A DNA stretch of 64,000 bases from the NCBI GenBank assembly GCA_000004985.1, contig GG738866.1. One strand, 5' to 3'. Position 1 is the stretch's first letter, and each line of letters starts with the position of its first letter. The DNA is from Naegleria gruberi (taxonomy: Eukaryota). The notes under the pieces were generated by a model. It did not search any database and was not told the DNA's origin. It saw only the letters and a list, made by a program, of their open reading frames with translations. Made by a program: the position numbers and the translations under genes. Positions 20,160 through 57,039 of this stretch are shown here, in pieces.

Positions 20160-21077
20160 ATGAACAAATTGACAGCCTTCTTCAAACAGCACCAATCGAA
20201 AAGTAACCTCGCCGATGCCACTGATGATTTAGCCTCTGTAGAAATCAGAACAACACCTTCTGCGCAATCACCAACAATAAAAAATACAAAAAATGCGGCA
20301 AACGATAATCGGCATGCAACGACGGAAATTAAGGAAACAAATGATGATAGTAAATTAAATAATGATGATGATGATCACAATGATAAGGATGAGAATGGTC
20401 AGAAGAATGAGATGGTGGAGGAGGATTATTATTGCGGGATTTATATGAAGAAATTAAATATTGATTTGCCGATTGAGTTGGTTATTTTGATTGCTCAATT
20501 TATGGATTTGAAACAATTGTATAATTTTGCAAGGTGTAATAGTAGAACGTTTAAGGTTTTCTTTAATGTTGATAAGAGAGATATTGGAAAGGAGAAGAAT
20601 GAGATGAGAGATGAGAAGGATTTGGATTTTAATAGAGTTCAAGTGCTTGTTTGGAAATTGTTGGCAGTTTCGTATTTTCCAAGAGTGGATCATAACCTCA
20701 ATGTTAAAAATTGGATGCAATTTTTGAGGAAACGAATGAAACATATCAAGGGTAACGGGTACGACTTTAAATTGGATATTCCATCATTTGTAAATTCAAA
20801 TATGGATGAGGAAATTATTGAAAATTGTGAATGGGTCTATAAGTGTCCATTAAGTTATTTCAATTTGAGTGGTGATGAAATAGATGTCAAGTTTTGTAAT
20901 GTTTGTGAAAAGCATGTCTATTTGGTTGACTCTTTGGAATCATTTCGTGAGAGGGTTGGTCGTGGAAATTGTGTTGCATTTACCTCGAAATTGTATCTTT
21001 ATGACGAACCATTAATGGGTGAATGTGTGGCAGATATTGATTATGATACAATACCTTTTGATATTCAAGAGAATTAG
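20160..21077 (+). CDS. F-box-like domain protein with Cys-rich C-terminus
   Basis: ATG at 20160 verified. F-box-like 'LPIELVILIAQFMDLKQLYNFARCNSRTFKVFF'. C-terminal 'CPLSYFNLSGDEIDVKFCNVCEKHVYLV...GNCVAF'. Confidence 0.5.
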   Translation: MNKLTAFFKQHQSKSNLADATDDLASVEIRTTPSAQSPTIKNTKNAANDNRHATTEIKETNDDSKLNNDDDDHNDKDENGQKNEMVEEDYYCGIYMKKLNIDLPIELVILIAQFMDLKQLYNFARCNSRTFKVFFNVDKRDIGKEKNEMRDEKDLDFNRVQVLVWKLLAVSYFPRVDHNLNVKNWMQFLRKRMKHIKGNGYDFKLDIPSFVNSNMDEEIIENCEWVYKCPLSYFNLSGDEIDVKFCNVCEKHVYLVDSLESFRERVGRGNCVAFTSKLYLYDEPLMGECVADIDYDTIPFDIQEN

Positions 21078-21107
21078 AAATATTTTAATATTTATTACAA
21101 TTTAAAA

Positions 21108-22976
21108 ATGGTAGAACAGAAAAAGAGAAAGAATGAAGACTCAGATTTATTTGTGAAAGAAAAGAAGCAGAAAAATAACGAGCCTTCCTCCGATCATGTT
21201 GGAAATCTTTTCAGTTCATCTTCCAGTTTACTTCGTCCATTTATTTATGAATCCGATCAGTTTCGTTTCTTTGTATTTAAATATCCATCTCCTTGTACCA
21301 AATTAGAATATTCACATGTTTCCAGCAAGTCATTCTTCATCAAAGTTACAATACAAGATGCTATTCCTATTGAAAATATATTAGAAACATTTCCATCAAT
21401 TATTACTAAAGGATTGAAGGAAAATACGAAACCAGAAGAAACTTTGTTGCATTCCGAAGCCATTCCCAACGATGTTTCTGTAGAGAGTATCAAATATGGA
21501 ATGTATAGAATGAAAGGCGATCATCTTGACGATAGGGTTTACATTATCATATTTGAAAAGAGCCAACGAGAAACTAATCTTCCAACACTTGACCATGATT
21601 ATTCCAAATTTATAACAGAATTGACATCCTCATATGGGAAAGAAATATTTTCTGATGATTTACTTTTTGAAATTCTTTCTTATTTAGATCAGAATTCAAT
21701 TATTCTAAATTGTTCCTTAATCTCCAAACAATGGTTGAAAATAATTCAAAAATCCTGTAAATTTAAATTCAAAGTTACAAGTTGGCGTTCTACCAACTTG
21801 ATGGGAGGTATTTTTTCTCCATGTTTTTCACAATTGCGAGTAGATGTTTGCAAGAACAATTTTTGTGACCAAGTGGTAAAGTTGAACAATTTAACAAATA
21901 TCAAATTTAGGACCACTAGTGGTGTTATGGATGTGTTGGATATAATCAAAGAAATGAAGCAAGTAACTTGGCTTGATATGAAGGGAGTGTCTATATTTAA
22001 AGATAGTTTTCTTAAGAAAATTGGTGAGCTGAGTCAATTGAAAACACTCGACATAGCCAATGCTGCTGGTGATAGGAGCAGATTTAGTAAGGGCATAAAA
22101 TATCTGGGAAACTTGATGAATTTATCTGAGCTTTATATCAACTCAAATGAAATTGGTGACAATGGCGCTGAAGATATTAGTGGAATGAAACAATTAACTA
22201 AACTTGACGTTTCTTCAAATGATATTACTACTAAAGGAGCCAAGCACATTAGTAAATTGAACAAACTAGTATCCCTAAAAATGGAGGAAAATATGATCGA
22301 TGCACAAGGAATTAAATATATTACCGATCAATTGAATCAATTAACAGAACTTGATATTGGTTCAAACGATCTTGGTGTATTGGGGGCAAAAGCAGTCAGT
22401 GAATTGTCCCAATTAACGTCACTGAGTATTGAAAACAATAATCTGCTCAACGAAGGAGCTGCTTATATCAGTAGATTACTGAATTTGACTGATCTTTGCA
22501 TTAATTCTAATCAAATTGATAGTGAAGGAGCCAAAGATATTATCAAATTGAAACAATTAACAACACTATTTATATCTGGCAACTCTCTTCTAGATGAAGG
22601 AGCCAAGTTAATTAGTGAGCTAAATAACTTAACCGTACTTGATATTTCAGACAATGAATTAACTGATGAAGGGGTAGAGCCAATCAGTAAATTGAAGCAA
22701 TTGAAGACACTTGAAATTGACGAAAATCAAATTAGTGATGAAGGAATAGAGTCAATTTGTGGACTCAATCAATTAACTGAGCTTAACATTGATTATAATC
22801 TCATATCTGCAGAAGGATTAAGTTCTATAAGCGGGAATGAGATTGGAGATGAAGGTGCAGAGATTATTGGTGACTTGACAAATTTGAAAGAGCTTACAGT
22901 AGACCAGAACTCAAGATCCAAGTACCATGAAATCTTGAAAACAAAATTACCATTATTAACGATCAAGAAAATTTAA
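21108..22976 (+). CDS. F-box/LRR protein (RNI-like leucine-rich repeats)
   Basis: ATG at 21108. F-box 'LLFEILSYLDQNSIILNCSLISKQWLKIIQ'. At least 12 tandem 24-aa LRRs of the form 'LxxLxLxxNxIxDEGAKxIS'. Confidence 0.65.
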   Translation: MVEQKKRKNEDSDLFVKEKKQKNNEPSSDHVGNLFSSSSSLLRPFIYESDQFRFFVFKYPSPCTKLEYSHVSSKSFFIKVTIQDAIPIENILETFPSIITKGLKENTKPEETLLHSEAIPNDVSVESIKYGMYRMKGDHLDDRVYIIIFEKSQRETNLPTLDHDYSKFITELTSSYGKEIFSDDLLFEILSYLDQNSIILNCSLISKQWLKIIQKSCKFKFKVTSWRSTNLMGGIFSPCFSQLRVDVCKNNFCDQVVKLNNLTNIKFRTTSGVMDVLDIIKEMKQVTWLDMKGVSIFKDSFLKKIGELSQLKTLDIANAAGDRSRFSKGIKYLGNLMNLSELYINSNEIGDNGAEDISGMKQLTKLDVSSNDITTKGAKHISKLNKLVSLKMEENMIDAQGIKYITDQLNQLTELDIGSNDLGVLGAKAVSELSQLTSLSIENNNLLNEGAAYISRLLNLTDLCINSNQIDSEGAKDIIKLKQLTTLFISGNSLLDEGAKLISELNNLTVLDISDNELTDEGVEPISKLKQLKTLEIDENQISDEGIESICGLNQLTELNIDYNLISAEGLSSISGNEIGDEGAEIIGDLTNLKELTVDQNSRSKYHEILKTKLPLLTIKKI

Positions 22977-25034: not shown

Positions 25035-26255
25035 TTAATTATTCTTGGTTGCTAATGATTTACAAATGGTTAACAAATCAGATTTTTCCACAATGTGAAG
25101 ATCTGGTTGGAGGAAGACACTTTTGTAATTGCTGGCCATGTAATCCAGGGTTGAACGTAAGAAAGTGTGAGATTGATGTTCCTTAGCAGCACTGTAGAAT
25201 ACAAAAATGTTTTCTGATGAAACAACCTTTCTGAAGAGATTGACACAATATTCAGATAATCCTGGTAACATTAATTGATCTGCCAAAACAAATGTTTCAA
25301 TCAAATGACATGGTCTTACATTTGTAAAACTACTGTACATATAATCCAATGCTGCAACTAGGGCAGGGAATGGAGCAAATGTGTCAACTACAATGGTATT
25401 ATTTACAGAGCTATCGATAAGAGTCTTTAAAAATGGAGATCTAGCAGCAAGGATAGCTTTCAAACATTTGATTTCTCTTCCAGAACTCTTATGAACGACA
25501 GTTAAATCAGCATGCAAACCACTCTTCAAAAGACTTCTATAAAATTTGCTAATTTCTGGAACTTCTTCCTTTTGAACACCTCCTTTTCCACAAATTTTGA
25601 CTGCATCAATTTCTGTCCAACCTCCATTCATACTTAAATCAATTCTAATAGCATTAGTTTTAAATCCTTTTACAGTCAATTCTGGAGCAAAATCTCTTGC
25701 TACATGGATACCATTTGTTGCAGGACCAGACCACAAAGTAACCCATTCATTTGAATTTTCACGTCTTCCACTAATTTTAGTAACAGATCCAGGTGTTGAT
25801 GATTCATAAATATGAACACTATAAACAGACATGACATGATCGTAACCCAATTCAATAAATTCAGGTCCTGTAGTATTATTTGGACACCAAGCAGAGCCAC
25901 TTGATGAATAGGTTGGATAGACCCTACAAGGACCTACCACATTATTGGCATGATAAGATGTTGGATCACCTCTTTAGAAAATAACAATGTCAACATTCCA
26001 TACAAACTGAAAAACAACTTACCCCCAGTAAGAGCTATACGAAATCACAGAAGAAGCCCATTGTTCGGAAGGTCCTACATCTTCTTCCTCTTCTTCATCC
26101 TCTTCATCTCCAAATTTATAGTCATCATAATAATCAGGTGCAATATCCTGCACTCTATACTTGCTATTGACCGATGCTGATGATGAACCTTGTTCTTCTT
26201 CGTTAATCAATACAATAGTCGAATCGTTGTTCTCTCTTCTTGGAATTGGGAGCAT
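25035..26255 (-). CDS. Galactose-binding-like (discoidin / F5-8 type C-like) domain + BTB/POZ domain protein; 2 exons
   Basis: ATG at 26255. Exon 1 ends ...SYSSYWG with phase-2 donor GTAAGT at 26022; intron 25972..26022 (51 nt). Exon 2 continues 'GDPTSYHANNVVGPCRVYPTYSSSGSAWCPNN...NAIRIDLSMNGGWTEIDAVKICG' (F5/8C-like ending). BTB 'ADLTVVHKSSGREIKCLKAILAARSPFLKTLIDSSVNNTIVVDTFAPFPALVAALDYMY'. Confidence 0.55.
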
Positions 26256-35118: not shown

Positions 35119-36043
35119 ATGAAACAAGATCAATGCACTGTTGCTCCTTCACCATCATCCTTGTGTGAAAGTGGTGGATTGTTTCCTGCAGAAATTTGGG
35201 TCCACATTCTTTCCTATCTACCTTCACCGTATATTCCGAATAGTGAGAATAATTCCGATCAAGAATTCAGAAAACAAGTTTTGGAATGGAATCAACTGAG
35301 AGAGAAATCATCCTCTATTTATTATGCTTGTAAATTTGCTATAATGGAGATGGATTTATCTTCATGGTTTCGTATGGATTTGAAAGAAATTGAGACGGCT
35401 TCCAAGTCAATTATACTACCTGGAGTAAAGAGAATAACTTATGAGGAAAATTTTCAAAAGAGATTTTCCAAAGAGAAAGGAGTTAATCCAATTTAATGCA
35501 ACTCAAATGGGTAAGATAATGATGAGACAGGAAAGTGCGTTTCAAATTATCTTGAATGGATTGGCTAATGGTTTTGCAAATGTGAAAAAGTTAAATCTCG
35601 ATGGATGGTACTTTTTGAAAGAGGAAGAATTGCAGAAAATTTGTGAAAATTTGAAATGTTTGGAGAGTTTATCCATTGTCAAATGTCAGAGAATTAGGGA
35701 TTTGGAATTGAGTAAGATTTCTAATCTGAATAATTTGAGAATTCACATCAATCAAATCAAATTAAGAATTAATATTGAAAGGAAAACAAGACAACAAAAT
35801 TTCAACATTGATATAGTTGATGGATTTTCCTTATTTTTCAAAACTTTGGATGGTTTTGGATTTTCAGAGCAATATCATTATTTATACTTTATTAAGGATA
35901 TGAAACCCTTATTGGAAAAGAGAATGGGAGTTTCATGGGAGAAGATTCGGTTCATCTTTGCTGGAAAGGAAATTGAGAATGAAAGAAGATTTGCTGATTA
36001 CTGTGTCTGCAAGGATAGTACCGTGCACGTTATTAAAAGGTAG
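35119..36043 (+). CDS. F-box / LRR / C-terminal ubiquitin-like domain protein; 2 exons
   Basis: ATG at 35119. F-box 'LFPAEIWVHILSYLPSP'. ORFs 35119..35496 and 35441..36043 overlap in different frames; a 49-nt phase-0 intron 35425..35473 (GTAAAG...CCAAAG) joins them: ...SIILPG|RKELIQFNATQMGKIMMRQESAF.... C-terminus 'MKPLLEKRMGVSWEKIRFIFAGKEIENERRFADYCVCKDSTVHVIKR' matches the ubiquitin fold pattern. Confidence 0.5.
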
Positions 36044-38130: not shown

Positions 38131-39129
38131 TCACTTTGATTGGTTTGTGATTTGATTCAAGTAATTATTGATAAAATTAATTTTACGCTTAATGGGACTT
38201 GTTTCCTTATATGAAGCACATTGTTTCATGACAGTTTGTGTTAACTGTTGTAAATTAGAGTTTTTCAAATAGAGTTGAAAGTTTTTCAGTCCAAGAACCT
38301 TTCTAATATTATTCATTCGCGATTCGAATTGTTCCACCTCTACATGTTGATAAACTAGACGAAAGCATTGAATTGTATCGTCATATTTGATAACCTTACT
38401 CCATATCTTGTCAAAAATACTTCCATTCTTACACATTTCCGTGAATGAGTCTTTATAATTCTTTCTTTGGAGTATAGATTCGAATGTATTGAAATGTATA
38501 GCCGTTTGAACAATTGAATCTTGAAAAAGCTCATTTTCCATCTCCAACCCGATTGCCTTAGTATTCATTGTCAACAAATGATCATAGATCTTGATAAATG
38601 ATTTGATGTCTTTCGAAAGAGAGTTCAATAATTTTACAATGGATAAAACTTCAATTATTGTAAAACTTCTCTCTGAAAAATTACTGTAAATTGAAATGAT
38701 TTCCAACATTTCCTTCAAACAATTTGGATCATTTTCAAAATAGTTATAAAAATAGTAAAATGCAGATATCATTTCTTTCACAGCCAAAAGAATTAGCTCT
38801 GCATCTTCATTTTCCAATAATAATTCCGAAAGCTCTCTAAGTTTTTTAAAATCCTTCTTTGCAAACAATGCTTGCACAACACAAAATTTGAAATCGCCAT
38901 CTCTTCCATATGGATTCTCAAATAAAAACTTTAAGATTGAAGAGGAAACATTTCTTCTTTCTTTCAAATTTGGTACAACACATGACGAAACTAAGCAATC
39001 AAATAAATCGTCGTCCATGTCTGTAACAAGTTCAATATAAGCTGCTAAATATTTCAAATTTAGCCAACCATCTGTTGATGAGATATCGATTCGTTTTCTA
39101 TTGAAAATTATTCGAATCAAATCCAACAT
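38131..39129 (-). CDS. Hypothetical helical protein immediately downstream of an F-box ORF (possibly the same gene)
   Basis: ATG at 39129 verified. 332 aa, alpha-helical-looking, no recognisable motif. Starts 2 nt after the stop of ORF 39134..39751, in a different frame. Confidence 0.35.
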   Translation of the reverse strand: MLDLIRIIFNRKRIDISSTDGWLNLKYLAAYIELVTDMDDDLFDCLVSSCVVPNLKERRNVSSSILKFLFENPYGRDGDFKFCVVQALFAKKDFKKLRELSELLLENEDAELILLAVKEMISAFYYFYNYFENDPNCLKEMLEIISIYSNFSERSFTIIEVLSIVKLLNSLSKDIKSFIKIYDHLLTMNTKAIGLEMENELFQDSIVQTAIHFNTFESILQRKNYKDSFTEMCKNGSIFDKIWSKVIKYDDTIQCFRLVYQHVEVEQFESRMNNIRKVLGLKNFQLYLKNSNLQQLTQTVMKQCASYKETSPIKRKINFINNYLNQITNQSK

Positions 39130-39133
39130 GTTT

Positions 39134-39751
39134 TCATCCTTGAATGGATTTAACTTTTTTGTTTTGTGAATTGGAAATTTCAGTTGAATAATCAGTTTTC
39201 AATCTTTGAAGCCATTTTAGAATGTGGCTGAAATGACTAAAGTCTTGTGTTACTCCATGGATTCTATCCAGTCTCATTCGAAATGTTTCTAATTTCCGAT
39301 GGTTTGTGTAATTTGGATCTACTAAGAGATTTAAATAATTGCATGACATTGAACTATCCGAAAATTCACAAGTGCTAATGAACAGAGAGGCACTATTCAT
39401 CATGGAAATAAAATTCGAAACCTTTAGTTTACCCATCCTTCCATCATTTGCCAACTCTTTTCCTTTCTTTTCTCTATATATCAAATAACATGCTCCTGCA
39501 ATTCTACTCCATAATTCAAGGATTGGAACATATAATTCACTATCACCCACTAAAATATCATAAAACATTCGTTTTGAAATTAGAATATAATTTTGTAATT
39601 CTTCAAATGCTGAAAGAAATACAAGTTTTGATGATTTGTTGGTGAGTAGCTCTATGGGAATGATAAATTTCAAGATTTGTAATCTCATTTCAGATGGCAA
39701 GTCCAGTAAAGTTTGTTGATCTGAAAAATCTTCCATTTCAATTATCGACAT
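39134..39751 (-). CDS. F-box-like protein
   Basis: ATG at 39751 verified. 'LLDLPSEMRLQILKFIIPIELLTN'. 205 aa. Confidence 0.45.
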   Translation of the reverse strand: MSIIEMEDFSDQQTLLDLPSEMRLQILKFIIPIELLTNKSSKLVFLSAFEELQNYILISKRMFYDILVGDSELYVPILELWSRIAGACYLIYREKKGKELANDGRMGKLKVSNFISMMNSASLFISTCEFSDSSMSCNYLNLLVDPNYTNHRKLETFRMRLDRIHGVTQDFSHFSHILKWLQRLKTDYSTEISNSQNKKVKSIQG

Positions 39752-40228: not shown

Positions 40229-41857
40229 ATGTCCTATATTCTCTCACCAATTTCACCATCACCTGTCGAATTTCCTGATGAATCAAAGTGGAAGGAAAGA
40301 CAAGATCGTCAATTGCGTTTGTGGGGAGTTCACGGTCAAGCTAGAATTGATTCTGCTCAAGTTTGTCTTTTGAATGCCACTGCTGTTGGTTGCGAAGTTT
40401 TGAAGAATATTGTTCTTCCAGGTTTTGGAAGCTTTTCTGTTGTTGATGCTCAAAAGGTCACTCCAAGAGATTTGGGAAGAAACTTTTACTTGAGAAAATC
40501 GGATTTGGAAAGAAATAGAGCTGAAGCTGTCTCTGAAATTATTGCAGAATTGAATCCAGAAGTTAAAGGTCAATTCCTTGCTGAAGATCCACTTGTTGTC
40601 ATTGAAAAATCACCAGAATTCTTTGATCAATTCAATTATATCATTGCTTCACAAATGCCTATGCATCACGTTGAAAAATTGGCCAAATATTGTCATGAAA
40701 AGAACAAGATCCTTGTTGCTGTTCGTTCATATGGTATGATCGGCTATTTACGTATCTTTACAAAGAGCCACACTATTGTTGAAGCTAAATTAGATACTCA
40801 AATTGATGATTTACGTATCACAAAACCATGGTTGGACTTTTTAAAGTTCTGTGATCTCCAAGAATTGGATGCTATGGATAATAATGCCCTCGCTCACACT
40901 GCCTACCCAATCTTGTTGGTCAAGGCTTTACAACAATGGAAATCATCTCACAATAACCAATTACCACAATCAAGAGCTGACAAGGAAGAATTCCAAAATA
41001 CTATCAAGGGTCTTTCCAAGTCATGGACCATGTTGACAAACTTTGAAGAAGCTTTAGATAAGGCTCACTTTTGTTATTCTGAACCACAAATTCCAGACTC
41101 TGTTAGTGCTGTTTTCAATGATGAACTTTGCACAAATTTGACAAAGGAATCTGATGATTTCTGGGTTATGGCTGCCTCTGTTAAAAAGTTTGTTGAAAAT
41201 GAAGGACAAGGTTTATTACCACTTCAAGGACGTGTTCCAGATATGCAATCTGATACTGAACGTTATGTTAAAATGCAATCACTTTTCAGAAAGAAGGCTC
41301 GTGCTGATATGGAAATTGTTAAAAAGTACATGAAGGAATTTTTGACACAAGTTGGTAGACCAGAAGATTCCATTCCAGAAATGGATCTTAAGGAATTCTG
41401 TAAAAATGCTTACTACTTGCGTGCAATTCATTTCAGATCTTTGGAACAAGAACTAAAGTCACCAAACAAGGAAGAAATTCAATCACACATGCAATGGAAT
41501 GAAGATTCAACCATGCCATTCTATGTCTGTTTCCGTGCCATTGATAGATTCTTGGAAAAGAAGGGATACTACCCAGGTCAAGAAGATGAAAATGTTGAAG
41601 CTGACACTGTTGAATTGAGAAAGATTGTTGATGAATTGCTTGTTGAATTTGGTGTTTCCGAATCTTGTCATGATATGGATAAGTATGTTGGTGAAATGGT
41701 CAGATATGGTGGTTGTGAACTCCATAATATTTCATCATTGATGGGAGGTGTTGCTGGTCAAGAATTGATCAAGTTGTGTACCAGACAACGTATTCCTGTT
41801 AATAATACTTGGGTCTTCTCTGGTATCAAGTCAATTTCGATTGCTTTTGAAGCATAA
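40229..41857 (+). CDS. NAE1: NEDD8-activating enzyme E1 regulatory subunit (APP-BP1/ULA1 homologue)
   Basis: ATG at 40229 verified. Length and sequence co-linear with human NAE1 recalled from memory: 'RQLRLWGVHGQARIDSAQVCLLNATAVGCEVLKNIVLPGFGSFSVVD' vs '[47 protein letters not shown]'. 'YGMIGYLRIFTKSHTIVE'. C-terminus 'NNTWVFSGIKSISIAFEA'. Confidence 0.85.
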   Translation: MSYILSPISPSPVEFPDESKWKERQDRQLRLWGVHGQARIDSAQVCLLNATAVGCEVLKNIVLPGFGSFSVVDAQKVTPRDLGRNFYLRKSDLERNRAEAVSEIIAELNPEVKGQFLAEDPLVVIEKSPEFFDQFNYIIASQMPMHHVEKLAKYCHEKNKILVAVRSYGMIGYLRIFTKSHTIVEAKLDTQIDDLRITKPWLDFLKFCDLQELDAMDNNALAHTAYPILLVKALQQWKSSHNNQLPQSRADKEEFQNTIKGLSKSWTMLTNFEEALDKAHFCYSEPQIPDSVSAVFNDELCTNLTKESDDFWVMAASVKKFVENEGQGLLPLQGRVPDMQSDTERYVKMQSLFRKKARADMEIVKKYMKEFLTQVGRPEDSIPEMDLKEFCKNAYYLRAIHFRSLEQELKSPNKEEIQSHMQWNEDSTMPFYVCFRAIDRFLEKKGYYPGQEDENVEADTVELRKIVDELLVEFGVSESCHDMDKYVGEMVRYGGCELHNISSLMGGVAGQELIKLCTRQRIPVNNTWVFSGIKSISIAFEA

Positions 41858-42295: not shown

Positions 42296-42763
42296 ATGTT
42301 CATTCCAAGCGAAAGCCGTGTTGCTGTTATGCAATACTTGTTCAAGGAAGGTGTTGTCGTCGCCAAGAATGATTTGAGATTAAAGTCTCACCCACACATT
42401 GAAGGTGTTAAGAATTTGCACGTCGTCAAATTCATGCAAGGTTTCGCTGCTAGAGGTTTGGTTAAGCAACAATATGCTTGGAGACATTACTATTGGTTCT
42501 TGACTAACAATGGTGTCAACTTCTTGAGAGAATACTTGAACTTGCCAACCACTGTCGTCCCAGCTACCCACAAGATGACTGGTAAGAAGATCCAAATCAT
42601 CAGCACTGATAGACCAAAGAAGCAATTCAAGGCTGGCGAAAGACCACAATACAGAAATGACAGAAAGACTGCTCCAAAGGAAGGTGAAACCGCTGTCCCA
42701 CAAGGAACTGCTACTGAAAAGCCAAAGACTGGTGGTAGAGGTAAAGGATTCCAACAACAATAA
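42296..42763 (+). CDS. RPS10: 40S ribosomal protein S10 (eS10)
   Basis: ATG at 42296. 'FKEGVVVAKNDLRLKSHPHIEGVKNLHVVKFMQGFAARGLVKQQYAWRHYYWFLTNNGVNFLREYLNLPTTVVPATHK'. Strongly biased high-expression codons (GGT, TTG, AGA, CCA, AAG, TTC, GTC). Confidence 0.9.
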   Translation: MFIPSESRVAVMQYLFKEGVVVAKNDLRLKSHPHIEGVKNLHVVKFMQGFAARGLVKQQYAWRHYYWFLTNNGVNFLREYLNLPTTVVPATHKMTGKKIQIISTDRPKKQFKAGERPQYRNDRKTAPKEGETAVPQGTATEKPKTGGRGKGFQQQ

Positions 42764-42930: not shown

Positions 42931-44058
42931 ATGTTTCATTCCATCTTCTCATATTTGTGGTGGATTTTCCCAACCCGATCCGAAAATCTTTATGCATCTT
43001 TATTGAAGAATAGCATTGATGAGAATGACTTCAAAGCAGGAATATTGGAAAGTCTCTCATTGGATATTGTGATCGAGATTATATCCTTTCTCGATCGGTT
43101 TGAATTTATCAGATTGTTTTCAGGAGTGAATAAATCCTTCTATTCATTAACAGAGGATAAAAGATTCTGGTTAATATTAGACCGTCATGATGAGAAAATT
43201 CCTACTGTTACACAACCAAATTCAAACTTCCAACCAATACTATGTTTTTCAAGAATTGAAGAATATCTCAAATCTTCTGAAAAGACAAGTTTCAAAACCA
43301 TTTACAAGAACCTTCTCCTCTCCCCTACCCCACACGAATTGAATCCAGTCTTTAAAAATCGTTCTGCAATTTATAATGTTGACACAGATCTCATTCCTGA
43401 AACAAAGAAATATATTGCCCTCTTTGGACAATCAAATTCTGGAAAATATTCTCTGGGAATTTGCTCTACGAGAGGTTATTCAAGGCCTAGTGATCAGAAG
43501 AGTGTTATCAAGATGGATTTCTTCTTCAAAAGAGTACTGATCAAGATGGAAAATCTATCCTCTCATCATAATGGAAATATTAGTGGAATATGCCATACGA
43601 ATTTTGTAATTGAATGTTTTGGACATCCTGATTTTCATTTGAAATTTAGAAATAATGGAATGGTTAGCATGAATAGTTTATCACTGGGTAGTAGTCTTTC
43701 AATCATGTTTACAATTGATTTATCAGTGAAAAATAATTATTTTCTCTCTGATTTATCCAAAATTTTGAATCCTTTATTTCAAGTTGATATTTCCAAAGAT
43801 TCTCCTCAGAAAATTAGAAAGAAAATGGGTAATAATAGACTCTGTATAATTGGAACCAAGAGTGATATTAGACAATTGAGTGAACAATCTCTGGCAAGTC
43901 AACTGATGAAAGTTATTGACACAAGTTGTGAATTTTGGGATCAATCCATCATTTACATTGAAACAAGTTCCAAAAATCGTGAAAATATGGATCATCCCTA
44001 TCTATTCTTTTCTCAATCCAACATTCATTCCCAAATCCAACCAAACTCATCCCTGTAA
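42931..44058 (+). CDS. F-box protein with degenerate P-loop GTPase-like domain
   Basis: ATG at 42931. F-box 'LDIVIEIISFLDRFEFIRLFSGVNKSFYSL'. P-loop-like 'ALFGQSNSGKYSLG'. 'CIIGTKSD' in the NKxD position. 'ETSSKN' in the SAK position. No DxxG. Confidence 0.5.
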   Translation: MFHSIFSYLWWIFPTRSENLYASLLKNSIDENDFKAGILESLSLDIVIEIISFLDRFEFIRLFSGVNKSFYSLTEDKRFWLILDRHDEKIPTVTQPNSNFQPILCFSRIEEYLKSSEKTSFKTIYKNLLLSPTPHELNPVFKNRSAIYNVDTDLIPETKKYIALFGQSNSGKYSLGICSTRGYSRPSDQKSVIKMDFFFKRVLIKMENLSSHHNGNISGICHTNFVIECFGHPDFHLKFRNNGMVSMNSLSLGSSLSIMFTIDLSVKNNYFLSDLSKILNPLFQVDISKDSPQKIRKKMGNNRLCIIGTKSDIRQLSEQSLASQLMKVIDTSCEFWDQSIIYIETSSKNRENMDHPYLFFSQSNIHSQIQPNSSL

Positions 44059-46213: not shown

Positions 46214-46242
46214 TCTCATTAAATTTAACTTATTTTTCCAAT

Positions 46243-47764: not shown

Positions 47765-48795
47765 ATGTCAAAACTTGAAAAACTTTCCTTTCAATTTTTT
47801 GATAAATTACCAGAAGAAATTTTGAGTGAAATTGGGAATTTTCTATTGCTTGGTGAATTTCACAAGTGGATGTTGGTGAATCGAATAGTATATCAGAAAC
47901 TTTGTTCCGATGCTTGTTATTCGAAATTTTATTGGAGGGAAATTAAGTATCATTGCAATGCAGATGAGAAGAAATATGTAATTTACAATCCAGTAACTTT
48001 AGAATATCACTCTAATGTGCATTCACTTTATTCTATTTATGGAAAAGTTTCGTCTAATTTTCGATATCATCTCTTGCAGTTTAAAAAGGAAATTTCGAAT
48101 AACAAACCCAACTTTTCATTCACTCCCATTGAGAACATGATGGAAATCAATCCAAAACTCCAAAAATCATTAGAAAAAGATGAATTTCCAGGATATGGAA
48201 AGATTTGCCTTATTGGAAACTCAACATGTGGCAAAACTTCACTTTATTGGAGAGTTCATACTCGAGAATTTCAAGAAACTTTTTGGTATACTTCAGATAA
48301 TCCCAATTTAGTGTATGAAAATTTTCTGATGTCATTGTGGGACCTTCCCTGTAGAGATGGGTAAGTTTCGTTTTATTTAGAATATTTTGAGATTAATCTC
48401 AATCAAGATATGATCAATTGAGAACTTTGTCGTATCCAGAAGCACACTTGGCTCTCGCTTGCTTTTCACTTGTGGACAGAGATTCATTCGATTCTATTCG
48501 AAACAAGTGGATTCATGAATTGAGATTCCACTTGAAAGATACTCCAATTATTCTGGTTGGTTGTAAACATGATTTAAGAGAAGAAATCATCAAATCATCA
48601 ACACATCAAGATAACCAATCAATTGTAACAAGTGAGGAAGCAGAGGAATTCGCCAAAAGTTTCGGATTTATATCCTATTGGGAGAATTCCTCTAAAAGTG
48701 GATTTGGGATGAAGAATTTTATGGAAATTTTAGTAAATGGGTGCACCTATCAACCGAATATTGTAAAACCAAAGAAAAAGTGTTTAATTCAATAA
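47765..48795 (+). CDS. F-box + Rho-family small GTPase fusion protein; 2 exons
   Basis: ATG at 47765. F-box 'LPEEILSEIGNFLLLGEFHKWMLVNRIVYQKL'. G1 'KICLIGNSTCGKTSL'. Exon 1 ends WDLPCRDG + phase-2 GTAAGT at 48362; 46-nt intron 48362..48407 joins in frame to 'YDQLRTLSYPEAHLALACFSLVDRDSFDSIRNKWIHELRFHLKDTPIILVGCKHDLRE...ENSSKSG'. Co-linear with Rho '[28 protein letters not shown]...PIILVGTKLDLRD...ECSA'. Confidence 0.65.
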
Positions 48796-48880: not shown

Positions 48881-49732
48881 ATGTCACCACACAATGATTA
48901 CACTACCATTCCAATAGAAGAATCAGAGATTAATTTACATTACTCACAAACTAATTCTTCCGAAACATTAAATTCATCATTATTAAATCTCCCGCCAGAA
49001 TTATTAACATTAATTATTGAATATTTATCAAATGATAATGTTGCACTGCTGTCATTCGAATTACTCGGAATAACTGCACGAGAAGTAATGAATAATCAAG
49101 TGTGGGAAAAATTATTTAGAAATCAACAAATTTCGTCCAAGTTTTTGGGTTTCGACTGGTTTATTTTACCGAATCAGTATCTTGTTGAACTGGTCAAGAG
49201 AAAATCAGAAAATCCACACAAAATTGCATTTTATTATCATTTCTACATGAATGGAATTATTACACAATTTCTAGATTATGAAATTTCGGATATAATTTAC
49301 AATTTCAGATATTCGAATAGAAGTAACGTATTTCAAATTGAAAAATCATTAATCCCATTAAGGAAATATTTTGAAGAAATGAATAGGTTTCATTTCTATT
49401 CAAATAGAAGACCAATTAATATTTTACTTTACAAAACTCAATTAGAAATTGAAATGAAACGTTGGATTAATTTCAAGAAGAAACCAGGCGAAATACTTCA
49501 CCAATACCGTCGCCACACCTATACCTCTTGCTTTATCCTCCTAGTAGTAAGCCCAATTATTGGAATTGGCTCTTTAGGAATGATTTTGGTTGGTGGAATT
49601 AGTTTCAAATATCCAACGTTTAATTCAGAACTTGGCGCCATCTCACTCATCATTATTGGATGTTTCATTTTGTTGATATCAGTTGTGGGATTACTTGTTT
49701 CAACCAAGTACATTTGTTCTTACAGAGATTAA
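48881..49732 (+). CDS. F-box protein with C-terminal double transmembrane tail
   Basis: ATG at 48881. F-box 'LPPELLTLIIEYLSNDNVALLSFELLGITAREVMNNQVWEKLF'. C-terminal 'FILLVVSPIIGIGSLGMILVGGISF...AISLIIIGCFILLISVVGLLV'. Confidence 0.5.
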   Translation: MSPHNDYTTIPIEESEINLHYSQTNSSETLNSSLLNLPPELLTLIIEYLSNDNVALLSFELLGITAREVMNNQVWEKLFRNQQISSKFLGFDWFILPNQYLVELVKRKSENPHKIAFYYHFYMNGIITQFLDYEISDIIYNFRYSNRSNVFQIEKSLIPLRKYFEEMNRFHFYSNRRPINILLYKTQLEIEMKRWINFKKKPGEILHQYRRHTYTSCFILLVVSPIIGIGSLGMILVGGISFKYPTFNSELGAISLIIIGCFILLISVVGLLVSTKYICSYRD

Positions 49733-49747
49733 CTTCCATGAATTGGA

Positions 49748-52610: not shown

Positions 52611-53011
52611 TTTTTGTTTTTGTTGGATTGGATAGTTCAACCAGATGGTGCTAATTTAAACCATTTCGAATTGTTTTTCATTTGGGACAAGCTGAAAATA
52701 GTTGGATGTAAGGTTCCAAATTTGGATAGAAAACTGATTCAATTTACTATTCAAATATCAACTCAGCTTTCCAAAGTATTCTACTTAATTCATGTATTCG
52801 AATTTCATGAGAGAATACTGTTAAATGTTTAACAGAGAACATTTGATATTGTTTTGTGACCAATCGACAGTCTGGTTTTTTCAGTCATTTGTAAAAAAAT
52901 AGTCATTAAGAACAAGAAAATTCTAGGCATGGAGGATAATTTTTTATTTTTATGAAAATTGTTGGATAAATGATAATGAATTAATTGAGGAATGAAGAGT
53001 TTATGAGATTG

Positions 53012-54018
53012 TTAAAACATAGAATCTTGTTTTTGTGTGCGTCTGACTAAAATATTTGGATTGTGCTGAAAGAGTGAGGTTTCAAAATTTGTTTTTCTAT
53101 TTTGGTGGTTTTCAATATTTTCTGATTGGTCTTTCCTGTTTTGGTTCTCAATATCAAACTCACAACACAAGAAACACATGAAACAAATCGCAATAATGTT
53201 GATTGATATTACAATACCATTGATAATACTACAAGCTATAATAGCTCCATTTGGCTTTTTGTTTTTATCAACTGTTCCAAACACAGCTAACAATCCAAAA
53301 TCTACAAAAACTGCCAAGAATGAAAGAAGCACAATCCAATAATTATAAAAAAAACCCATTCTTTGTTTGTCCTTAGTTAAAAACTTGATAAAATCAGAAA
53401 CCCAATGAAGGATGAAAGTACCAACAATTGTCCATCCAAATATTGAACTAATTGATTCATTATACTGTATAAAATTATATGATAACTTGATGAGCCATCT
53501 ATTTGTAAACTCCATAAGAACCTAGTCAACCATATTCCAATTACAACAATATGAAGGTGAGGATTATTTTCTTTAAAGCCATCAAATTTCTTCTTATATT
53601 CCTCAAAGTGGTTTGAAATAACGTTTCGACAAACTTTTCGTCCTTTCTTTTGCAAAAGTGGAAAAAGAGCATGAAACACACTAATAGAACCAAAACATCA
53701 AAAATGACTGTTTCAAAATTGTAAATTGAAGAACCAAACCAAATAGCAGAATTGATAATTAGCATTACCAAGCAGCCATATCCAATCTTATGTGGGTGAT
53801 CATAATCAATACCTAGAAAGATAGTGAAAATAAAGAAAACAGTGAACAATAAACTAAAGATGGCACCCATACTGTCAGTAGAATCAATATTTTGCTGATC
53901 ACCACTTGCAATAATATTAAACAGATCCAAAATGGTTCTATTCTTCGGCTTGATATTTACAAGAACAACTGTAACACAATTAAGTGCTAGCATAATACTA
54001 GAGAAGGACGCTTTGCCC
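53012..54018 (-). CDS. Multi-pass membrane protein, paralogue of 49748..51093; multi-exon with uncertain joins
   Basis: ATG at 54018 ('MGKASFSSIMLALNCVTVVLV...'). Three consecutive minus-strand ORFs in different frames (53541..54101, 53377..53679, 53012..53515). Hydrophobic-segment pattern and C-terminal acidic tail parallel the 49748 gene. Confidence 0.4.
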
Positions 54019-54605
54019 ATTTTTTTGTTATGGTTTACACGTGTTGTGTAGATGTAACGAAAATTTTCAGTGTTGATGCATGTGAATGATCCTCCACACA
54101 TGTTGTTGATGATTGTTATGGTGTAACAACGCCGCGGCTGCTATAAGAAATTACATTGCGTTAATGAAGAGTCGTTTTTTTACCATTTTTTTTCTTCATG
54201 AATTTTACAATTATTTTCACAATCGTATGAAAGAAGAGCGACAATTTTTATATGAATTGAAATTAAGGAATTACACCTGTTTTTAAGGGTACATACATTT
54301 GGAGAATCAACTTTAAGGTTTAATTTCGGAGGATCAAATACGATTGATTATTGATTCATTTGTTGAAGGAATGGCAGAACCAAAGAAGTGGTTCAGCAGC
54401 CATGAAAATTAAGGTTGTGGTTCCACCAGAGGGAAATCACTCTACATGAATTGGTACCTCGATCCTTGTGAGTCTTTCCACTTTTCAGTATATGTGGATA
54501 ACGAATGATACGTAAAGGCTGGTCCTTGCATTGCGTACAGAAAAGGTTTCTAACACCAACTTGGTTAATATCAACGAATTACAAAGTTTCTGACATGGTT
54601 TGAAA

Positions 54606-55817
54606 TCACTGGAATAGTTTTTTAAATACATCTATTAATTTTGAAAGCATATGAAGTGAATAATCGAGTAGATCATCGTGCACCTGCTCAATCTTTCTGT
54701 AATTGAAATTTTTTAGATGGGAGAATGAATGTTGAGAAATTGAGCAATGAAATCTACGAATATCATCTGCAGAGCTCAATTCAAATTGTAATTCTCTCAA
54801 ATTCTTGAAAACTTGCTTGCCTATCAGAATTTTAACATGATTCAATCTTAGTAGAACATTTCCAAACCTTAATACTTTTAACTGCTCTAAATTGTCCAAT
54901 TGATTGAGGAAAAGTTCAATAGATGTATAATTATTAGATACATTATATAAATTTTCAAGAGTAATTTCCTTCAATTTGGAAAATTTTGAATTACAAATAG
55001 TTTCCAATATTTGTAAATTAATATGATATGATAACTTCAATATTTCAATATTAGAACACAATTCAGACATTAGAGTATTTACAATTGATAAATCGCTATA
55101 AATATTGGCCAGTGATAATTTTTTAAGGTTTCCAAAATTGGAAAATGTATCTGAATTATTCCATTCATGAATAATACATGAATTCAAAGATAAACTTTCA
55201 ATATTTTTGAAACATTCTTTCTCTGATAATGATGATGAACTAAGCATAAAACTTCCAAGTTCCAGACGTTTTAAACTTGCTAAATAAGGACTATCAAACA
55301 TTTCAATATCGAAATAATGCTCTCCATAAACTTCATCTGAAATTATCAAAGTTTCAAGATTTTTCATTCGACTTCCAACAATCAATTCAATTCCGCACAT
55401 TGGATTTCTCCAATATTGATCATATGGATCGTGTGTTCTTAATTCCAAATAGTTCAATTCGAAAGTTTCAACAATCATTTTCAACAGTTTCGTATGAGTT
55501 GAATATCCAATGATTGTAACTCCTCTCACATTTCTACAATTCTCTCCTTTCAATTTTTCAATCCACTTATCGACAATTCTTTCGTCAACATCTTGTACTT
55601 CGCTATCGAACCAAACATACGAATCTTCCACATTAATCGTTAAAAACAGTGGAATTTTCAAAGAATGTGAGTACCAATTCTTATTCACACGATTACAATT
55701 TTTCAAAATTTGCTCTCCGCTCATGTAATTTAATATTAAATTTAATATTAAATCATCAAAAATTGCATCACCGGATTCAGGTGAACATTTCATGATGTAT
55801 GTTTTCATTTTTTCCAT
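54606..55817 (-). CDS. F-box / LRR (FBXL-like) protein
   Basis: ATG at 55817 verified. F-box 'AIFDDLILNLILNYMSGEQILKNCNRVNKNWYSHS'. Following L-rich repeats 'LKKLSLANIYSDLSIVNTLMSELCSNIEILKLSYHINLQILETICNSKFSKLKEITLENL'. Confidence 0.55.
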   Translation of the reverse strand: MEKMKTYIMKCSPESGDAIFDDLILNLILNYMSGEQILKNCNRVNKNWYSHSLKIPLFLTINVEDSYVWFDSEVQDVDERIVDKWIEKLKGENCRNVRGVTIIGYSTHTKLLKMIVETFELNYLELRTHDPYDQYWRNPMCGIELIVGSRMKNLETLIISDEVYGEHYFDIEMFDSPYLASLKRLELGSFMLSSSSLSEKECFKNIESLSLNSCIIHEWNNSDTFSNFGNLKKLSLANIYSDLSIVNTLMSELCSNIEILKLSYHINLQILETICNSKFSKLKEITLENLYNVSNNYTSIELFLNQLDNLEQLKVLRFGNVLLRLNHVKILIGKQVFKNLRELQFELSSADDIRRFHCSISQHSFSHLKNFNYRKIEQVHDDLLDYSLHMLSKLIDVFKKLFQ

Positions 55818-55881
55818 TTAAAAATTCGAAATGAAACTAAATAAATTAATATTAAATTTTATTATAAGAAACCATATTTTC

Positions 55882-57039
55882 TTAATCACTGAAACATACA
55901 CTAGCGTGATATTCATAGAATTGATAAAGAACTACTTCGAAGGGATTTTCCATATTGTTGGGATTGACAATTAAGGAAATAATATAGCTATCAATGGCAT
56001 CACCTAAAAGTTGTGAATTGAAGGATCGTTCAACTTTCATAAATGTTGTGTAACTTGTAATGTTTGGATCTTCATTCCATTTCGCCTTTGTATTTTCATT
56101 AAATTCGTCCAAAATTTCCAAAGTGTTCAAGTTATAAGGACAACATTCAGCAATGTTATCGTAAAATGTAATTCGATGAAGATCATGCACATAGTAATTG
56201 ATTCGAAATAGAAAGTTCAACATCATTTGAAGAAGGTATTGATTGTGTAAAATTCCACATTCATGACATGTCAAAACTAGTTCTCTAATCCAATGAATGA
56301 AATTTTTAGCACCTTTCATTTGGTTTCCATTGGAAGGGGCAACTTCAAATTGATTATACGAAAGGCAAATTACATTTCTCACTAAATTGTGTTCGTATGA
56401 AGTGTCATCATTGGGGATGCCAACGAGCTCTGTACAATTCTCATTATGGTAGAAACCCTCTTCCAACTTTTGAATGAGAATATATTCAGAACGATTCTTT
56501 TTGTTTCTTCCTGTAAACAGTTGGTCAGCTGAGGAAAATTTTAATCCCAAATGATTACTATATCCTTCGTCATCACATTCCTGATGCCAAACCATTGAAT
56601 AATCTGCAAAATAATTTAAATTACCTATCTCTACATCCTTAGAATTATTCCTCTTGGTCACATTAATGCAATCACAAAGTATCCACTTGCTCATTTGAAA
56701 AATCTTATCATTTTCTATATTGAATGAAGGTTTACATTTGTAAAACTTGAATTCATAACGAGGAATCATCATTCCTTCATTAATAGCTGCAACACATTTA
56801 GAAAGAAACACAATAAATGGCATTGCACGTTGGTAATCAATCAAATGATGATCAATCTTCAAGTTTTCTGAGTGAGAATTATTCAAACTCTTGTTTAAAT
56901 GTTGAAAGTACAAATAAAAGTGTTTTGTAATTAAATCTCTCCATTCTGTGCACACGAATTTGCAATTTAAAATTTGTTTCCATGATAAATAGCCATCAAA
57001 TAGAATGGTCAGCAGAATGTCCTGATTGTTGGCTATCAT
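55882..57039 (-). CDS. F-box-like protein with Cys/His-rich body
   Basis: ATG at 57039 verified. 'DILLTILFDGYLSWKQILNCKFVCTEWRDLITKHFY'. 385 aa. Confidence 0.5.
   Translation of the reverse strand: MIANNQDILLTILFDGYLSWKQILNCKFVCTEWRDLITKHFYLYFQHLNKSLNNSHSENLKIDHHLIDYQRAMPFIVFLSKCVAAINEGMMIPRYEFKFYKCKPSFNIENDKIFQMSKWILCDCINVTKRNNSKDVEIGNLNYFADYSMVWHQECDDEGYSNHLGLKFSSADQLFTGRNKKNRSEYILIQKLEEGFYHNENCTELVGIPNDDTSYEHNLVRNVICLSYNQFEVAPSNGNQMKGAKNFIHWIRELVLTCHECGILHNQYLLQMMLNFLFRINYYVHDLHRITFYDNIAECCPYNLNTLEILDEFNENTKAKWNEDPNITSYTTFMKVERSFNSQLLGDAIDSYIISLIVNPNNMENPFEVVLYQFYEYHASVCFSD

What the first reader, a model, noticed from the sequence alone, without database searches (positions are those of the whole stretch)
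20160..57039. Dense cluster of at least nine F-box genes with different C-terminal modules inside 37 kb
F-box-like motifs (LPxEIL..IL.[YF]L pattern) head genes at 20160, 21108, 35119, 39751(-), 42931, 47765, 48881, 55817(-) and 57039(-). Their C-terminal parts differ: RNI-type LRRs, LRR plus ubiquitin-like domain, Rho GTPase, decayed P-loop, double TM tail, Cys/His-rich body. This looks like an accessory, fast-evolving region in which substrate-recognition modules are being shuffled onto a common SCF-docking domain, interleaved with housekeeping genes (NAE1, RPS10). NAE1 encodes the NEDD8 E1 regulatory subunit, and neddylation activates cullin-RING (SCF) ligases; its position amid F-box genes is a notable coincidence.
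Basis: partly seen in the sequence, partly recalled or inferred. Interest (0 to 1): 0.6.

Follow-up and report, generated by a model that had tools for sequence, protein, structure and literature searches.

The report
Naegleria F-box gene neighbourhood, mixed families
A 37-kb stretch of the Naegleria gruberi genome carries an unusually dense set of about eight unrelated, fast-evolving F-box (ubiquitin-ligase adaptor) genes; their kind is already known in this amoeba, and several of them are cut short or missing in the public annotation.

Summary
The window is Naegleria gruberi NEG-M nuclear DNA from a 469-kb scaffold. NAE1, RPS10, g42931 and the RabTitan gene match XP_002677506/507/508/502 exactly.

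All nine ORFs exist with the motif where stated.
- Solid F-boxes: g21108, g42931, g57039, g55817, g47765.
- Probable: g20160, g35119, g48881.
- Doubtful: g39751.

Only two pass Pfam's own cut-off. Even so, the nine take 9 of the top 10-11 ranks among 569 six-frame ORFs with three different F-box profiles. Twenty-nine other window genes and 85 kb of related Naegleria/Willaertia loci yield no further F-box gene.

The "module-shuffling hotspot" reading is not supported. The nine are not each other's paralogues, and their closest relatives lie on other scaffolds. The cluster is absent around NAE1-RPS10 in N. lovaniensis and Willaertia, so the NAE1 adjacency is coincidental.

F-box-GTPase fusions in Naegleria were already described by Herman et al. 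2021, and g47765 is their curated XP_002677510.1*.

What is new is the local density, two truncated public models, two genes with no match in the protein library, and a few minor architectures.

The parts
20160..21077 (+). g20160: 305-aa protein with an F-box-like region (aa 102-140, nt about 20463-20579) and a conserved C-terminal Cys-rich, zinc-ribbon-like module. The public model XP_002677500.1 covers only aa 115-305 and so cuts the F-box.
21108..22976 (+). g21108: 622-aa F-box (aa 182-219) plus RNI-type LRR protein, of FBXL type.
   Evidence: Pfam F-box 26.1 bits (above cut-off) and LRR_6 E 2.8e-30. hhalign probability 94.5.
25035..25940 (-). BTB/POZ protein, a different class of cullin-RING adaptor (CUL3 type).
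   Evidence: Pfam BTB E 3.2e-11.
35119..36043 (+). g35119: predicted 291-aa protein made of exons 35119-35424 and 35474-36043 (49-nt GTAAAG..AAG intron). It has F-box-like helix 1, a short LRR and a C-terminal ubiquitin-like domain.
   Evidence: Intron inferred from overlapping ORFs. Pfam ubiquitin E 1.5e-7. F-box-like 12.7 bits, helix 1 only. hhalign probability 34 against a control maximum of 7.9.
38131..39751 (-). g39751: a 205-aa ORF (39134-39751) with the weakest F-box-like N-terminus. A 332-aa ORF (38131-39129) follows 4 nt later in another frame. This is either one gene with a frameshift near an A6 run or two ORFs.
   Evidence: Sequence reading. No Pfam hit. HMM scores 4.6-10.1 bits. 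hhalign 4.6-10.2. The 205-aa ORF, the only part searched, has no homologue in 1.84e9 representatives. AF2 uninformative.
40229..41857 (+). NAE1 (NEDD8 E1 regulatory subunit), XP_002677506.1. A housekeeping anchor, not part of the F-box set.
   Evidence: 85% identical to N. lovaniensis and 71% to Willaertia. Exact match to XP_002677506.1.
42296..42763 (+). RPS10, XP_002677507.1. Its adjacency to NAE1 is conserved in relatives, but its orientation is inverted here.
42931..44058 (+). g42931: XP_002677508.1 (UniProt D2VEA6), an F-box (aa 39-81) plus a decayed Rab-like GTPase domain. Motifs: P-loop GQSNSGKY, G4 TKSD, G5 ETSSK.
   Evidence: Pfam F-box 23.5 bits (above cut-off) and Ras E 0.014. Rab43 E 0.09 over the G4-G5 region. 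Exact look-up. Absent from Table S8 of Herman et al..
47765..48795 (+). g47765: exons 47765-48360 and 48408-48795 (47-nt intron). It is an F-box-Rac GTPase with a degenerate G3 motif (DLPC) and a CaaX end, and equals the curated XP_002677510.1*.
   Evidence: The spliced protein is identical to the sequence in Table S8 of PMC8296547. 42% identical to XP_002676320.1*, which is flagged F-box there. The family N-terminal profile hits FBXO42 at E 2e-4, and 4 of 8 members hit Pfam F-box.
48881..49732 (+). g48881: 283-aa protein with an F-box-like N-terminus (aa about 34-82) and two C-terminal transmembrane helices (aa 214-241 and 247-280). Neither an exact copy nor any similar protein is in the public collections searched.
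   Evidence: Pfam F-box 13.4 and F-box-like_2 15.3 bits. 52% identity over 27 aa to the N-terminal leader and first F-box helix of XP_002676320. hhalign 21-45. Hydropathy. No library hit.
54606..55817 (-). g55817: 403-aa F-box (aa about 19-56) plus a degenerate LRR body.
   Evidence: BLASTP to the g21108 F-box: 33% over 42 aa, E 0.002. hhalign probability 67.6. Pfam LRR_At5g56370 E 0.005.
55882..57039 (-). g57039: 385-aa F-box (aa 7-46) plus a Cys/His-rich body (14 Cys, 15 His). The public model XP_002677594.1 starts at aa 73 and so lacks the F-box.
   Evidence: Pfam F-box-like 21.5 bits, E 2e-4. hhalign 86.8. Accessions. The N. lovaniensis homologue P0187 is named 'F-box domain-containing protein'.

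Best explanation
This is a gene-dense, poorly syntenic stretch of a Naegleria gruberi chromosome. Eight, possibly nine, members of different subfamilies of the species' large, rapidly evolving F-box repertoire happen to lie within 37 kb, alongside one BTB gene.

Inferred mechanism: each protein acts as a substrate receptor of an SCF (Skp1-Cul1-Rbx1) ubiquitin ligase. The N-terminal three-helix F-box would dock on Skp1. The C-terminal module would select the substrate or the site of action:
- LRR solenoids (g21108, g55817).
- LRR plus a ubiquitin-like domain (g35119).
- A prenylatable Rac-like GTPase with a degenerate switch II (g47765).
- A decayed Rab-like domain (g42931).
- A two-helix membrane anchor (g48881).
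- Zinc-ribbon-like or Cys/His-rich bodies (g20160, g57039).

The genes are not recent tandem copies of one another. The concentration most likely arose by lineage-specific gene gain, relocation and rearrangement in a region that has lost synteny with N. lovaniensis and Willaertia. It does not reflect a functional unit, and the neighbouring NAE1 is a bystander.

Shown: domain identities, lack of paralogy, lack of synteny, and local excess over controls. Inferred: Skp1 binding, ligase function and the origin of the cluster.
For: Identity of the locus: exact matches to N. gruberi XP_002677502, 506, 507 and 508 on a 469,335-bp scaffold. g47765 is identical to the curated XP_002677510.1*.

F-box evidence.

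Modules.

No paralogy among the nine. Closest relatives are on other scaffolds.

No F-box among 29 other window genes. None apart from the two bait genes in 85 kb of N. lovaniensis and Willaertia loci.

NAE1-RPS10 is conserved without F-box neighbours.

If the density of 9 per 36.9 kb held genome-wide, it would imply about 10,000 F-box genes in a 41-Mb genome with about 15,700 genes. With up to 400 F-box genes genome-wide, six or more in one such window has a genome-corrected expectation of 0.0025 or less (genome size and gene number are from my own knowledge of Fritz-Laylin et al. 2010).

F-box-GTPase fusions and their birth-and-death evolution in Naegleria are published (PMC8296547 supplement).
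Against: - Only two of nine pass Pfam's curated cut-off.
- For g35119 and g48881 the matches cover mainly helix 1.
- g39751 does not beat the controls in hhalign.
- A profile of the five weakest N-termini alone finds no F-box chain in the PDB.
- No genome-wide F-box count for N. gruberi could be obtained, so the enrichment rests on bounds and on small controls from other species.
- The window was picked because of the motif, so there is selection bias.
- No expression data or Skp1-binding data exist.
- Two gene models rest on predicted introns, and one gene may be a pseudogene.
Confidence: 0.62

Rival explanations
1. Local birth-and-shuffle hotspot. The cluster arose by tandem duplication of an F-box exon or gene at this locus. 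New C-terminal modules were then acquired and the copies diverged so fast that paralogy is no longer detectable.
For: - Three same-strand adjacent pairs lie only 30-86 nt apart: g20160/g21108, g47765/g48881 and g57039/g55817.
- g21108, g55817 and g57039 share an 'ILNC...W' flavour of F-box.
- The g48881 N-terminus resembles that of the g47765 paralogue family, with 52% identity over 27 aa.
- Herman et al. describe birth-and-death dynamics for F-box-GTPases.
Against: - Pairwise identity among the nine is at most 34% and is confined to 28-61 aa.
- g47765 and g42931, both F-box-GTPases 5 kb apart, are not detectably related outside the motif.
- Clearly closer paralogues of g47765 (42%), g20160 (50%) and g57039 lie on other scaffolds.
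Confidence: 0.18
2. Chance co-location. N. gruberi has a very large F-box family, so one of roughly a thousand 37-kb windows with five to nine members is expected by chance, and the first reader simply found it.
For: - Table S8 alone lists dozens of F-box-GTPases in N. gruberi, and 'F-box' occurs 72 times over two species.
- If there were about 800-1600 F-box genes, windows with six or more would be expected by chance.
- The members are unrelated to each other, as random sampling predicts.
Against: With 400 or fewer F-box genes, six or more in 37 kb has a genome-wide expectation of 0.0025 or less, and nine or more about 2e-7. There are zero additional F-box genes in 27 kb of window flanks and in 85 kb of related loci.
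Confidence: 0.15
3. Over-called motif. Only the four or five best cases are F-boxes. The others are chance matches of a hydrophobic L-P-x-E-I-L helix in an AT-rich, Leu/Ile/Asn-rich proteome.
For: - Pfam fails on g39751, g47765 and g55817 and gives E of 0.02 or worse for g35119 and g48881.
- The weak-five profile finds nothing.
- Shuffled ORFs reach 9-11 bits about 0.3 times per window-equivalent.
Against: - The weak cases still outrank essentially all 560 other ORFs with three independent profiles.
- Five of the seven non-Pfam-passing cases exceed all 194 control tiles in hhalign.
- g47765 and g20160 are rescued by family and structural evidence.
- The motif sits near the N-terminus in seven of the nine genes (at aa 102-140 in g20160 and 182-219 in g21108), always upstream of the module.
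Confidence: 0.05

Closest known systems
F-box-GTPase fusion proteins of Naegleria (Herman et al. 2021, BMC Biol 19:142, Additional files 4 and 10)
   Same: g47765 is literally one of their curated N. gruberi 'Rac' entries (XP_002677510.1*), and its paralogue XP_002676320.1* is flagged F-box. [quoted passage not shown]
   Different: XP_002677510.1* itself is not flagged F-box in the table. g42931 (XP_002677508.1) is not listed at all, presumably because its GTPase domain is decayed. The paper does not discuss genomic clustering or the seven non-GTPase F-box genes found here.
Clustered, fast-evolving F-box arrays of nematodes and plants (FBXA/FBXB in C. elegans; FBA/FBK/FBL tandem arrays in Arabidopsis and rice). 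This comparison rests on my own knowledge of Thomas 2006 and Xu et al. 2009.
   Same: Many F-box genes in a small interval, poor conservation between related species, and weak scores against generic F-box models.
   Different: Those arrays are tandem duplicates that share one C-terminal domain type and are each other's closest paralogues. Here the neighbours are unrelated and carry six or seven different C-terminal modules.
RhoBTB (atypical Rho GTPase fused to a CUL3 adaptor domain) and TbFRP (FYVE-F-box-GTPase of Euglenozoa, PMC3593210)
   Same: A small-GTPase domain is joined in one polypeptide to a cullin-RING adaptor domain, and the GTPase is often catalytically atypical. g47765 has DLPC in place of DTAG.
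   Different: The domain order and partner differ: F-box at the N-terminus, no BTB or FYVE. TbFRP orthologues are reported to be absent from N. gruberi.
FBXL-type SCF receptors (SKP2, FBXL2)
   Same: g21108, and probably g55817 and g35119, combine an F-box with LRRs. The nine-sequence profile aligns best to the SKP2 F-box.
   Different: g21108 has a 180-aa N-terminal extension and RNI-type (LRR_6) repeats. g35119 ends in a ubiquitin-like domain, which I know only at the N-terminus of an F-box protein (FBXO7; own knowledge).

Membership tests
F-box protein family (Pfam PF00646 / PF12937) | Sequence match to the curated F-box models at or above the gathering score. | tested here: inconclusive
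   Met for g21108 (26.1 bits) and g42931 (23.5 bits). Just below the cut-off for g57039 (21.5) and g20160 (18.3). Weak for g48881 and g35119. No hit for g39751, g47765 and g55817.
F-box protein family | Remote homology to bona fide F-boxes beyond what control sequences reach. | tested here: met
   Met for seven of nine by hhalign. g20160 fails that test but passes by family and structure. Not met for g39751. The nine-sequence profile hits SKP2 at E 5e-8. The nine take 9 of the top 10-11 ranks of 569 ORFs.
F-box protein family | Three-helix F-box fold. | tested here: inconclusive
F-box protein family | Binding to Skp1 and assembly into an SCF ligase. | not testable with these tools
   No multimer prediction or experimental data were available.
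Naegleria F-box-GTPase fusions (Herman et al. 2021) | An N-terminal F-box followed by a Ras-superfamily GTPase domain in one protein. | tested here: met
   g47765 is identical to the curated Rac XP_002677510.1* and 42% identical to the F-box-flagged XP_002676320.1*. For g42931 the F-box is met, but the GTPase domain is sub-threshold (Pfam Ras E 0.014, Rab43 E 0.09).
Tandemly duplicated F-box arrays (nematode or plant type) | Neighbouring genes are each other's closest paralogues and share one C-terminal domain type. | tested here: not met
   All-vs-all BLASTP finds only similarity of 34% or less confined to the F-box. Closer paralogues are on other scaffolds.
Functionally linked neddylation/SCF gene cluster | Conserved linkage of NAE1 with F-box genes across species. 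| tested here: not met
   NAE1-RPS10 in N. lovaniensis and Willaertia has no F-box gene within 10 kb on either side.

The most novel reading that the evidence does not exclude
The stretch is a Naegleria gruberi-specific 'adaptor island': a rearrangement-prone region where new SCF and CUL3 substrate receptors are born, relocated and lost at a high rate. This would be analogous to the pathogen-driven F-box arrays of nematodes and plants, but it would assemble heterogeneous architectures, such as F-box-LRR-UBL, membrane-anchored F-box and F-box-pseudoGTPase. Such an island could serve an amoeba that is constantly challenged by intracellular bacteria and giant viruses.
Probability: 0.12. Interest if true: 0.5.

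Novelty: new member of a known kind. Interest (0 to 1): 0.28.

Why it matters
The biology is ordinary in kind. F-box receptors, and their fusion to GTPases in Naegleria, are already described.

The practical value is for annotation and comparative work:
- In this one locus, two public gene models lose their F-box through wrong start sites.
- One model needed the splice correction that Herman et al. had already made.
- Two F-box-like genes, g48881 and the doubtful g39751a, have no counterpart in public protein collections.
- One F-box-pseudoGTPase is missing from the published GTPase census.

Domain counts for F-box proteins in N. gruberi are therefore probably underestimates. A tuned genome-wide scan would show whether such dense neighbourhoods are a general feature of heterolobosean genomes.

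Tried and rejected
1. A profile of the five weakest N-termini alone (A2) against the PDB gave no significant F-box hit. The alignment was poor because of insertions.

2. A concatenated 2,503-aa query in the search for homologous proteins returned nothing. I reject this negative as unreliable, because the search of protein representatives later found 100%-identical N. gruberi proteins for two of the same segments.

3. The homologous-protein search with g47765 returned only generic Rho/Rac proteins. It did not return the known N. gruberi paralogues, so it cannot show that orthologues are absent.

4. A single-sequence AlphaFold run on g39751a gave pLDDT 37 and was unusable.

5. The g20160 family profile (A4) against PDB sequences gave no F-box hit. 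Structure prediction was needed instead.

6. The look-up of encoding contigs for the N. gruberi proteins P0146 and P0147 found nothing on record, so I could not walk along the scaffold or measure the density in its flanks.

7. Four literature searches for a genome-wide F-box count or a description of F-box clustering in Naegleria found none. The N. gruberi genome paper is not held.

8. I considered that g20160 and g21108, which are 30 nt apart, form one gene. I rejected this because the public model ends at the same stop codon.

9. I considered a giant-virus or Dictyostelium origin from the base composition. The 85% NAE1 identity to N. lovaniensis and the exact N. gruberi matches ruled this out.


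Full report
**Origin of the window.** The window is 33% G+C, gene-dense, and has very short introns. The NAE1-like ORF (40229-41854) is 85% identical to the Naegleria lovaniensis NEDD8-E1 regulatory subunit and 71% to that of Willaertia magna. Exact-sequence look-ups give the following identities, all on a 469,335-bp scaffold of Naegleria gruberi NEG-M:
- NAE1 is XP_002677506.1.
- RPS10 is XP_002677507.1.
- The 375-aa ORF at 42931 is XP_002677508.1 (UniProt D2VEA6, 'F-box domain-containing protein').
- The 605-aa Ras-like ORF at 26506 is XP_002677502.1, listed as 'RabTitan' in Table S8 of Herman et al. 2021.

**Gene models.**
- g47765 needs a 47-nt intron (48361-48407). The spliced 327-aa product is letter-for-letter the manually corrected 'Rac' XP_002677510.1* in Table S8 of Herman et al. 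2021, PMC8296547.
- g35119 consists of two overlapping ORFs. A 49-nt GTAAAG..AAG intron (35425-35473) joins them into a 291-aa protein. This model is inferred.
- g39751(-) ends at 39134, and a 332-aa ORF starts 4 nt later in another frame, with an A6 run just upstream. It may be a frameshifted gene or a pseudogene.

**Are the nine N-termini F-boxes?** Pfam results:
- Two pass the curated cut-off: g21108 (26.1 bits) and g42931 (23.5 bits).
- Two are near the threshold: g57039 (21.5 bits, E 2e-4) and g20160 (18.3 bits, E 2e-3).
- Two are weak: g48881 and g35119.
- Three give nothing: g39751, g47765 and g55817.

More sensitive and controlled tests change the picture:
- A profile of all nine N-termini hits almost only F-box chains in the PDB. 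SKP2 scores E 5e-8, followed by FBXO3, FBXW8, Cdc4, FBXO42, KDM2A, FBXL2 and beta-TrCP.
- A profile of only the five weakest finds nothing significant.
I searched all 569 six-frame ORFs of at least 40 aa. The nine candidates take 9 of the top 10-11 ranks each time. Ten-fold shuffled ORFs reach the 9-11-bit range about 0.3 times per window-equivalent.
- hhalign against the canonical alignment gives probabilities of 94.5 (g21108), 92.2 (g42931), 86.8 (g57039), 67.6 (g55817), 39 (g47765; 85 with the Naegleria-augmented template), 34 (g35119), 21 (g48881; 45 augmented), 4.6 (g39751) and 2.6 (g20160). The best of 194 control tiles from the other window genes reaches 7.9.

**Rescue of g47765 and g20160.**
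- g47765 is 42% identical over its full length to XP_002676320.1*, which Herman et al. flag as F-box. The aligned N-termini of eight such 'Rac' paralogues hit FBXO42 (E 2e-4) and other F-box chains, and four of the eight hit Pfam F-box.
- g20160 accounts for nearly all of the 146 hits found among 1.84 billion representatives. Four of 16 sampled homologues hit Pfam F-box (best E 7.6e-5), and F-box is the only recurrent family.
- An AlphaFold model built from 45 family members reaches mean pLDDT 77. It shows three short helices at pLDDT 87-95 exactly where the motif lies.

**My grading.** Five are solid: g21108, g42931, g57039, g55817 and g47765. Three are probable: g20160, g35119 and g48881. 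One is doubtful: g39751.

**C-terminal modules.**
- g21108 has RNI-type LRRs (LRR_6 E 2.8e-30).
- g55817 has degenerate LRRs.
- g35119 has an LRR plus a ubiquitin-like domain (PF00240 E 1.5e-7).
- g47765 has a Rho/Rac GTPase, 30-37% identical to Rho/Rac proteins, with a GNSTCGKT P-loop, DLPC in place of DTAG, and a CaaX end.
- g42931 has a decayed Rab-like domain with GQSNSGKY, TKSD and ETSSK motifs (Pfam Ras E 0.014; Rab43 E 0.09).
- g48881 has two C-terminal transmembrane helices.
- g57039 has a Cys/His-rich body with 14 Cys and 15 His.
- g20160 carries a conserved Cys-rich module, ENCEWIYKCPL...FCxxCxKxVYxV...GxCVAF. This module also occurs as stand-alone 70-110-aa proteins.

**Local excess.**
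- None of 29 other window genes has a Pfam F-box hit at E of 0.01 or better. One of them, at 25035-25940(-), is a BTB protein, another class of cullin-RING adaptor.
- Four loci from N. lovaniensis and Willaertia total 85 kb. They contain no F-box gene other than the two I used as bait.
- If 9 per 36.9 kb held genome-wide, there would be about 10,000 F-box genes. With 400 or fewer F-box genes in 41 Mb, six or more in one such window has a genome-corrected expectation of 0.0025 or less. Only with about 800-1600 or more would it be unremarkable.
- I could not obtain a genome-wide count. Four literature searches found none, and the scaffold could not be fetched. The excess is therefore very likely but not rigorously proven.

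**Origin of the cluster.**
- All-vs-all BLASTP shows no paralogy among the nine beyond 28-61-aa stretches of the F-box at 34% identity or less.
- Closer relatives lie elsewhere: XP_002676320 for g47765, XP_002682472 (50%) for g20160 and XP_002673080 for g57039. These sit on scaffolds of different length or carry distant accession numbers.
- Around NAE1, N. lovaniensis and Willaertia keep RabTitan, the neighbouring 614/666-aa gene, NAE1 and RPS10. Between and beyond these anchors they carry other genes: TspO in both species, MAPEG and a Fanzor-like OrfB/TNB protein in N. lovaniensis, then a nucleoside transporter (N. lovaniensis) or Sec24 (Willaertia). No window F-box gene has a tblastn match there. 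RPS10 is inverted in N. gruberi.
- The best N. lovaniensis homologues of g20160 and g57039 lie on two further contigs, among housekeeping genes.
- Conservation contrasts sharply. NAE1 is 85% and RPS10 76% identical, against 40-43% for g20160 and 28-29% (C-terminal third only) for g57039. g39751a and g48881 have no hit at all, not even a self hit, which suggests they are missing from the public annotation.

The locus is therefore lineage-specific and fast-evolving. It is not a visible tandem-duplication or module-swapping array, and NAE1 is a conserved bystander.

**What is already known.** The supplement to Herman et al. [quoted passage not shown] Table S8 lists dozens of such genes. g47765 is one of them, though it is not itself flagged F-box. 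g42931 is not listed.

**By-products for annotation.** XP_002677500.1 (191 aa) begins inside the F-box of g20160. XP_002677594.1 (313 aa) begins 72 residues into g57039 and lacks the F-box.

**Verdict.** This is a real, locally dense but heterogeneous neighbourhood of known-type genes. It is useful for annotation and as a lead for a genome-wide clustering test, but it is not a new kind of system.

Noticed in passing
L002 4124-8041 (-) (N. lovaniensis PYSW02000001.1) and L005 7822-8901 (-): A 1262-aa and a 359-aa product with OrfB_IS605 / Cas12f1-like TNB Pfam hits (Fanzor/TnpB-like). The first sits between MAPEG and TspO just upstream of NAE1. The second lies next to the g57039 homologue. No such gene was seen in the window: none of the 38 ORFs scanned with Pfam hits these families, though no targeted search was made.
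   Followed up: no
window 25035-25940 (-): A BTB/POZ protein (PF00651 E 3e-11) with an unassigned beta-rich N-terminal region of about 130 aa ending in ...GGWTEIDAVKICG. It is a second class of cullin-RING adaptor inside the F-box stretch.
   Followed up: partly
window 20160-21077 (+) and 55882-57039 (-): The public N. gruberi models XP_002677500.1 (191 aa) and XP_002677594.1 (313 aa) start inside or downstream of the F-box. The longer ORFs in the window restore it.
   Followed up: yes
window 20800-21000 (+), C-terminus of g20160: A conserved Cys-rich module of about 60 aa (ENCEWIYKCPL..FCxxCxKxVYxV..GxCVAF) has no Pfam family. It also occurs as stand-alone 70-110-aa proteins in metagenomes. 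In the AF2 model, Foldseek pairs it with a small (83-91-residue) chain of the large ribosomal subunit, which I take to be a zinc-ribbon protein (own knowledge).
   Followed up: partly
window 39127-39165 (-): Two ORFs in different frames lie 4 nt apart, with an A6 run just upstream. This is a possible frameshift, assembly error or pseudogene in g39751.
   Followed up: partly
window 51642-52640 (-): A 332-aa ORF with a signal-peptide-like start and an extremely Lys/Cys-rich repetitive body (KKCLKHK...). It has no Pfam hit.
   Followed up: no
window 49748-54101 (-): A run of small ORFs, several of them hydrophobic or multi-transmembrane, with no significant Pfam hit. The Lys/Cys-rich ORF at 51642-52640 lies within this run.
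   Followed up: no
window 33628-34803 (-) and 36149-38099 (+): Two DUF4116-repeat genes (E 1e-32 and 5e-110) flank g35119. They belong to another family that recurs in N. gruberi proteins: a DUF4116-type repeat tail is also visible on a curated Rab5 in Table S8.
   Followed up: no
window 2305-5513 (-) compared with L002 21563 onward (+): AP5B1 lies about 35 kb upstream of NAE1 in N. gruberi but about 10 kb downstream in N. lovaniensis, and RPS10 is inverted. Several rearrangement breakpoints therefore fall within this window.
   Followed up: partly
tool behaviour: the search for homologous proteins did not return N. gruberi paralogues or self matches that demonstrably exist in the collection. 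Negatives from those two calls should not be used.
   Followed up: yes
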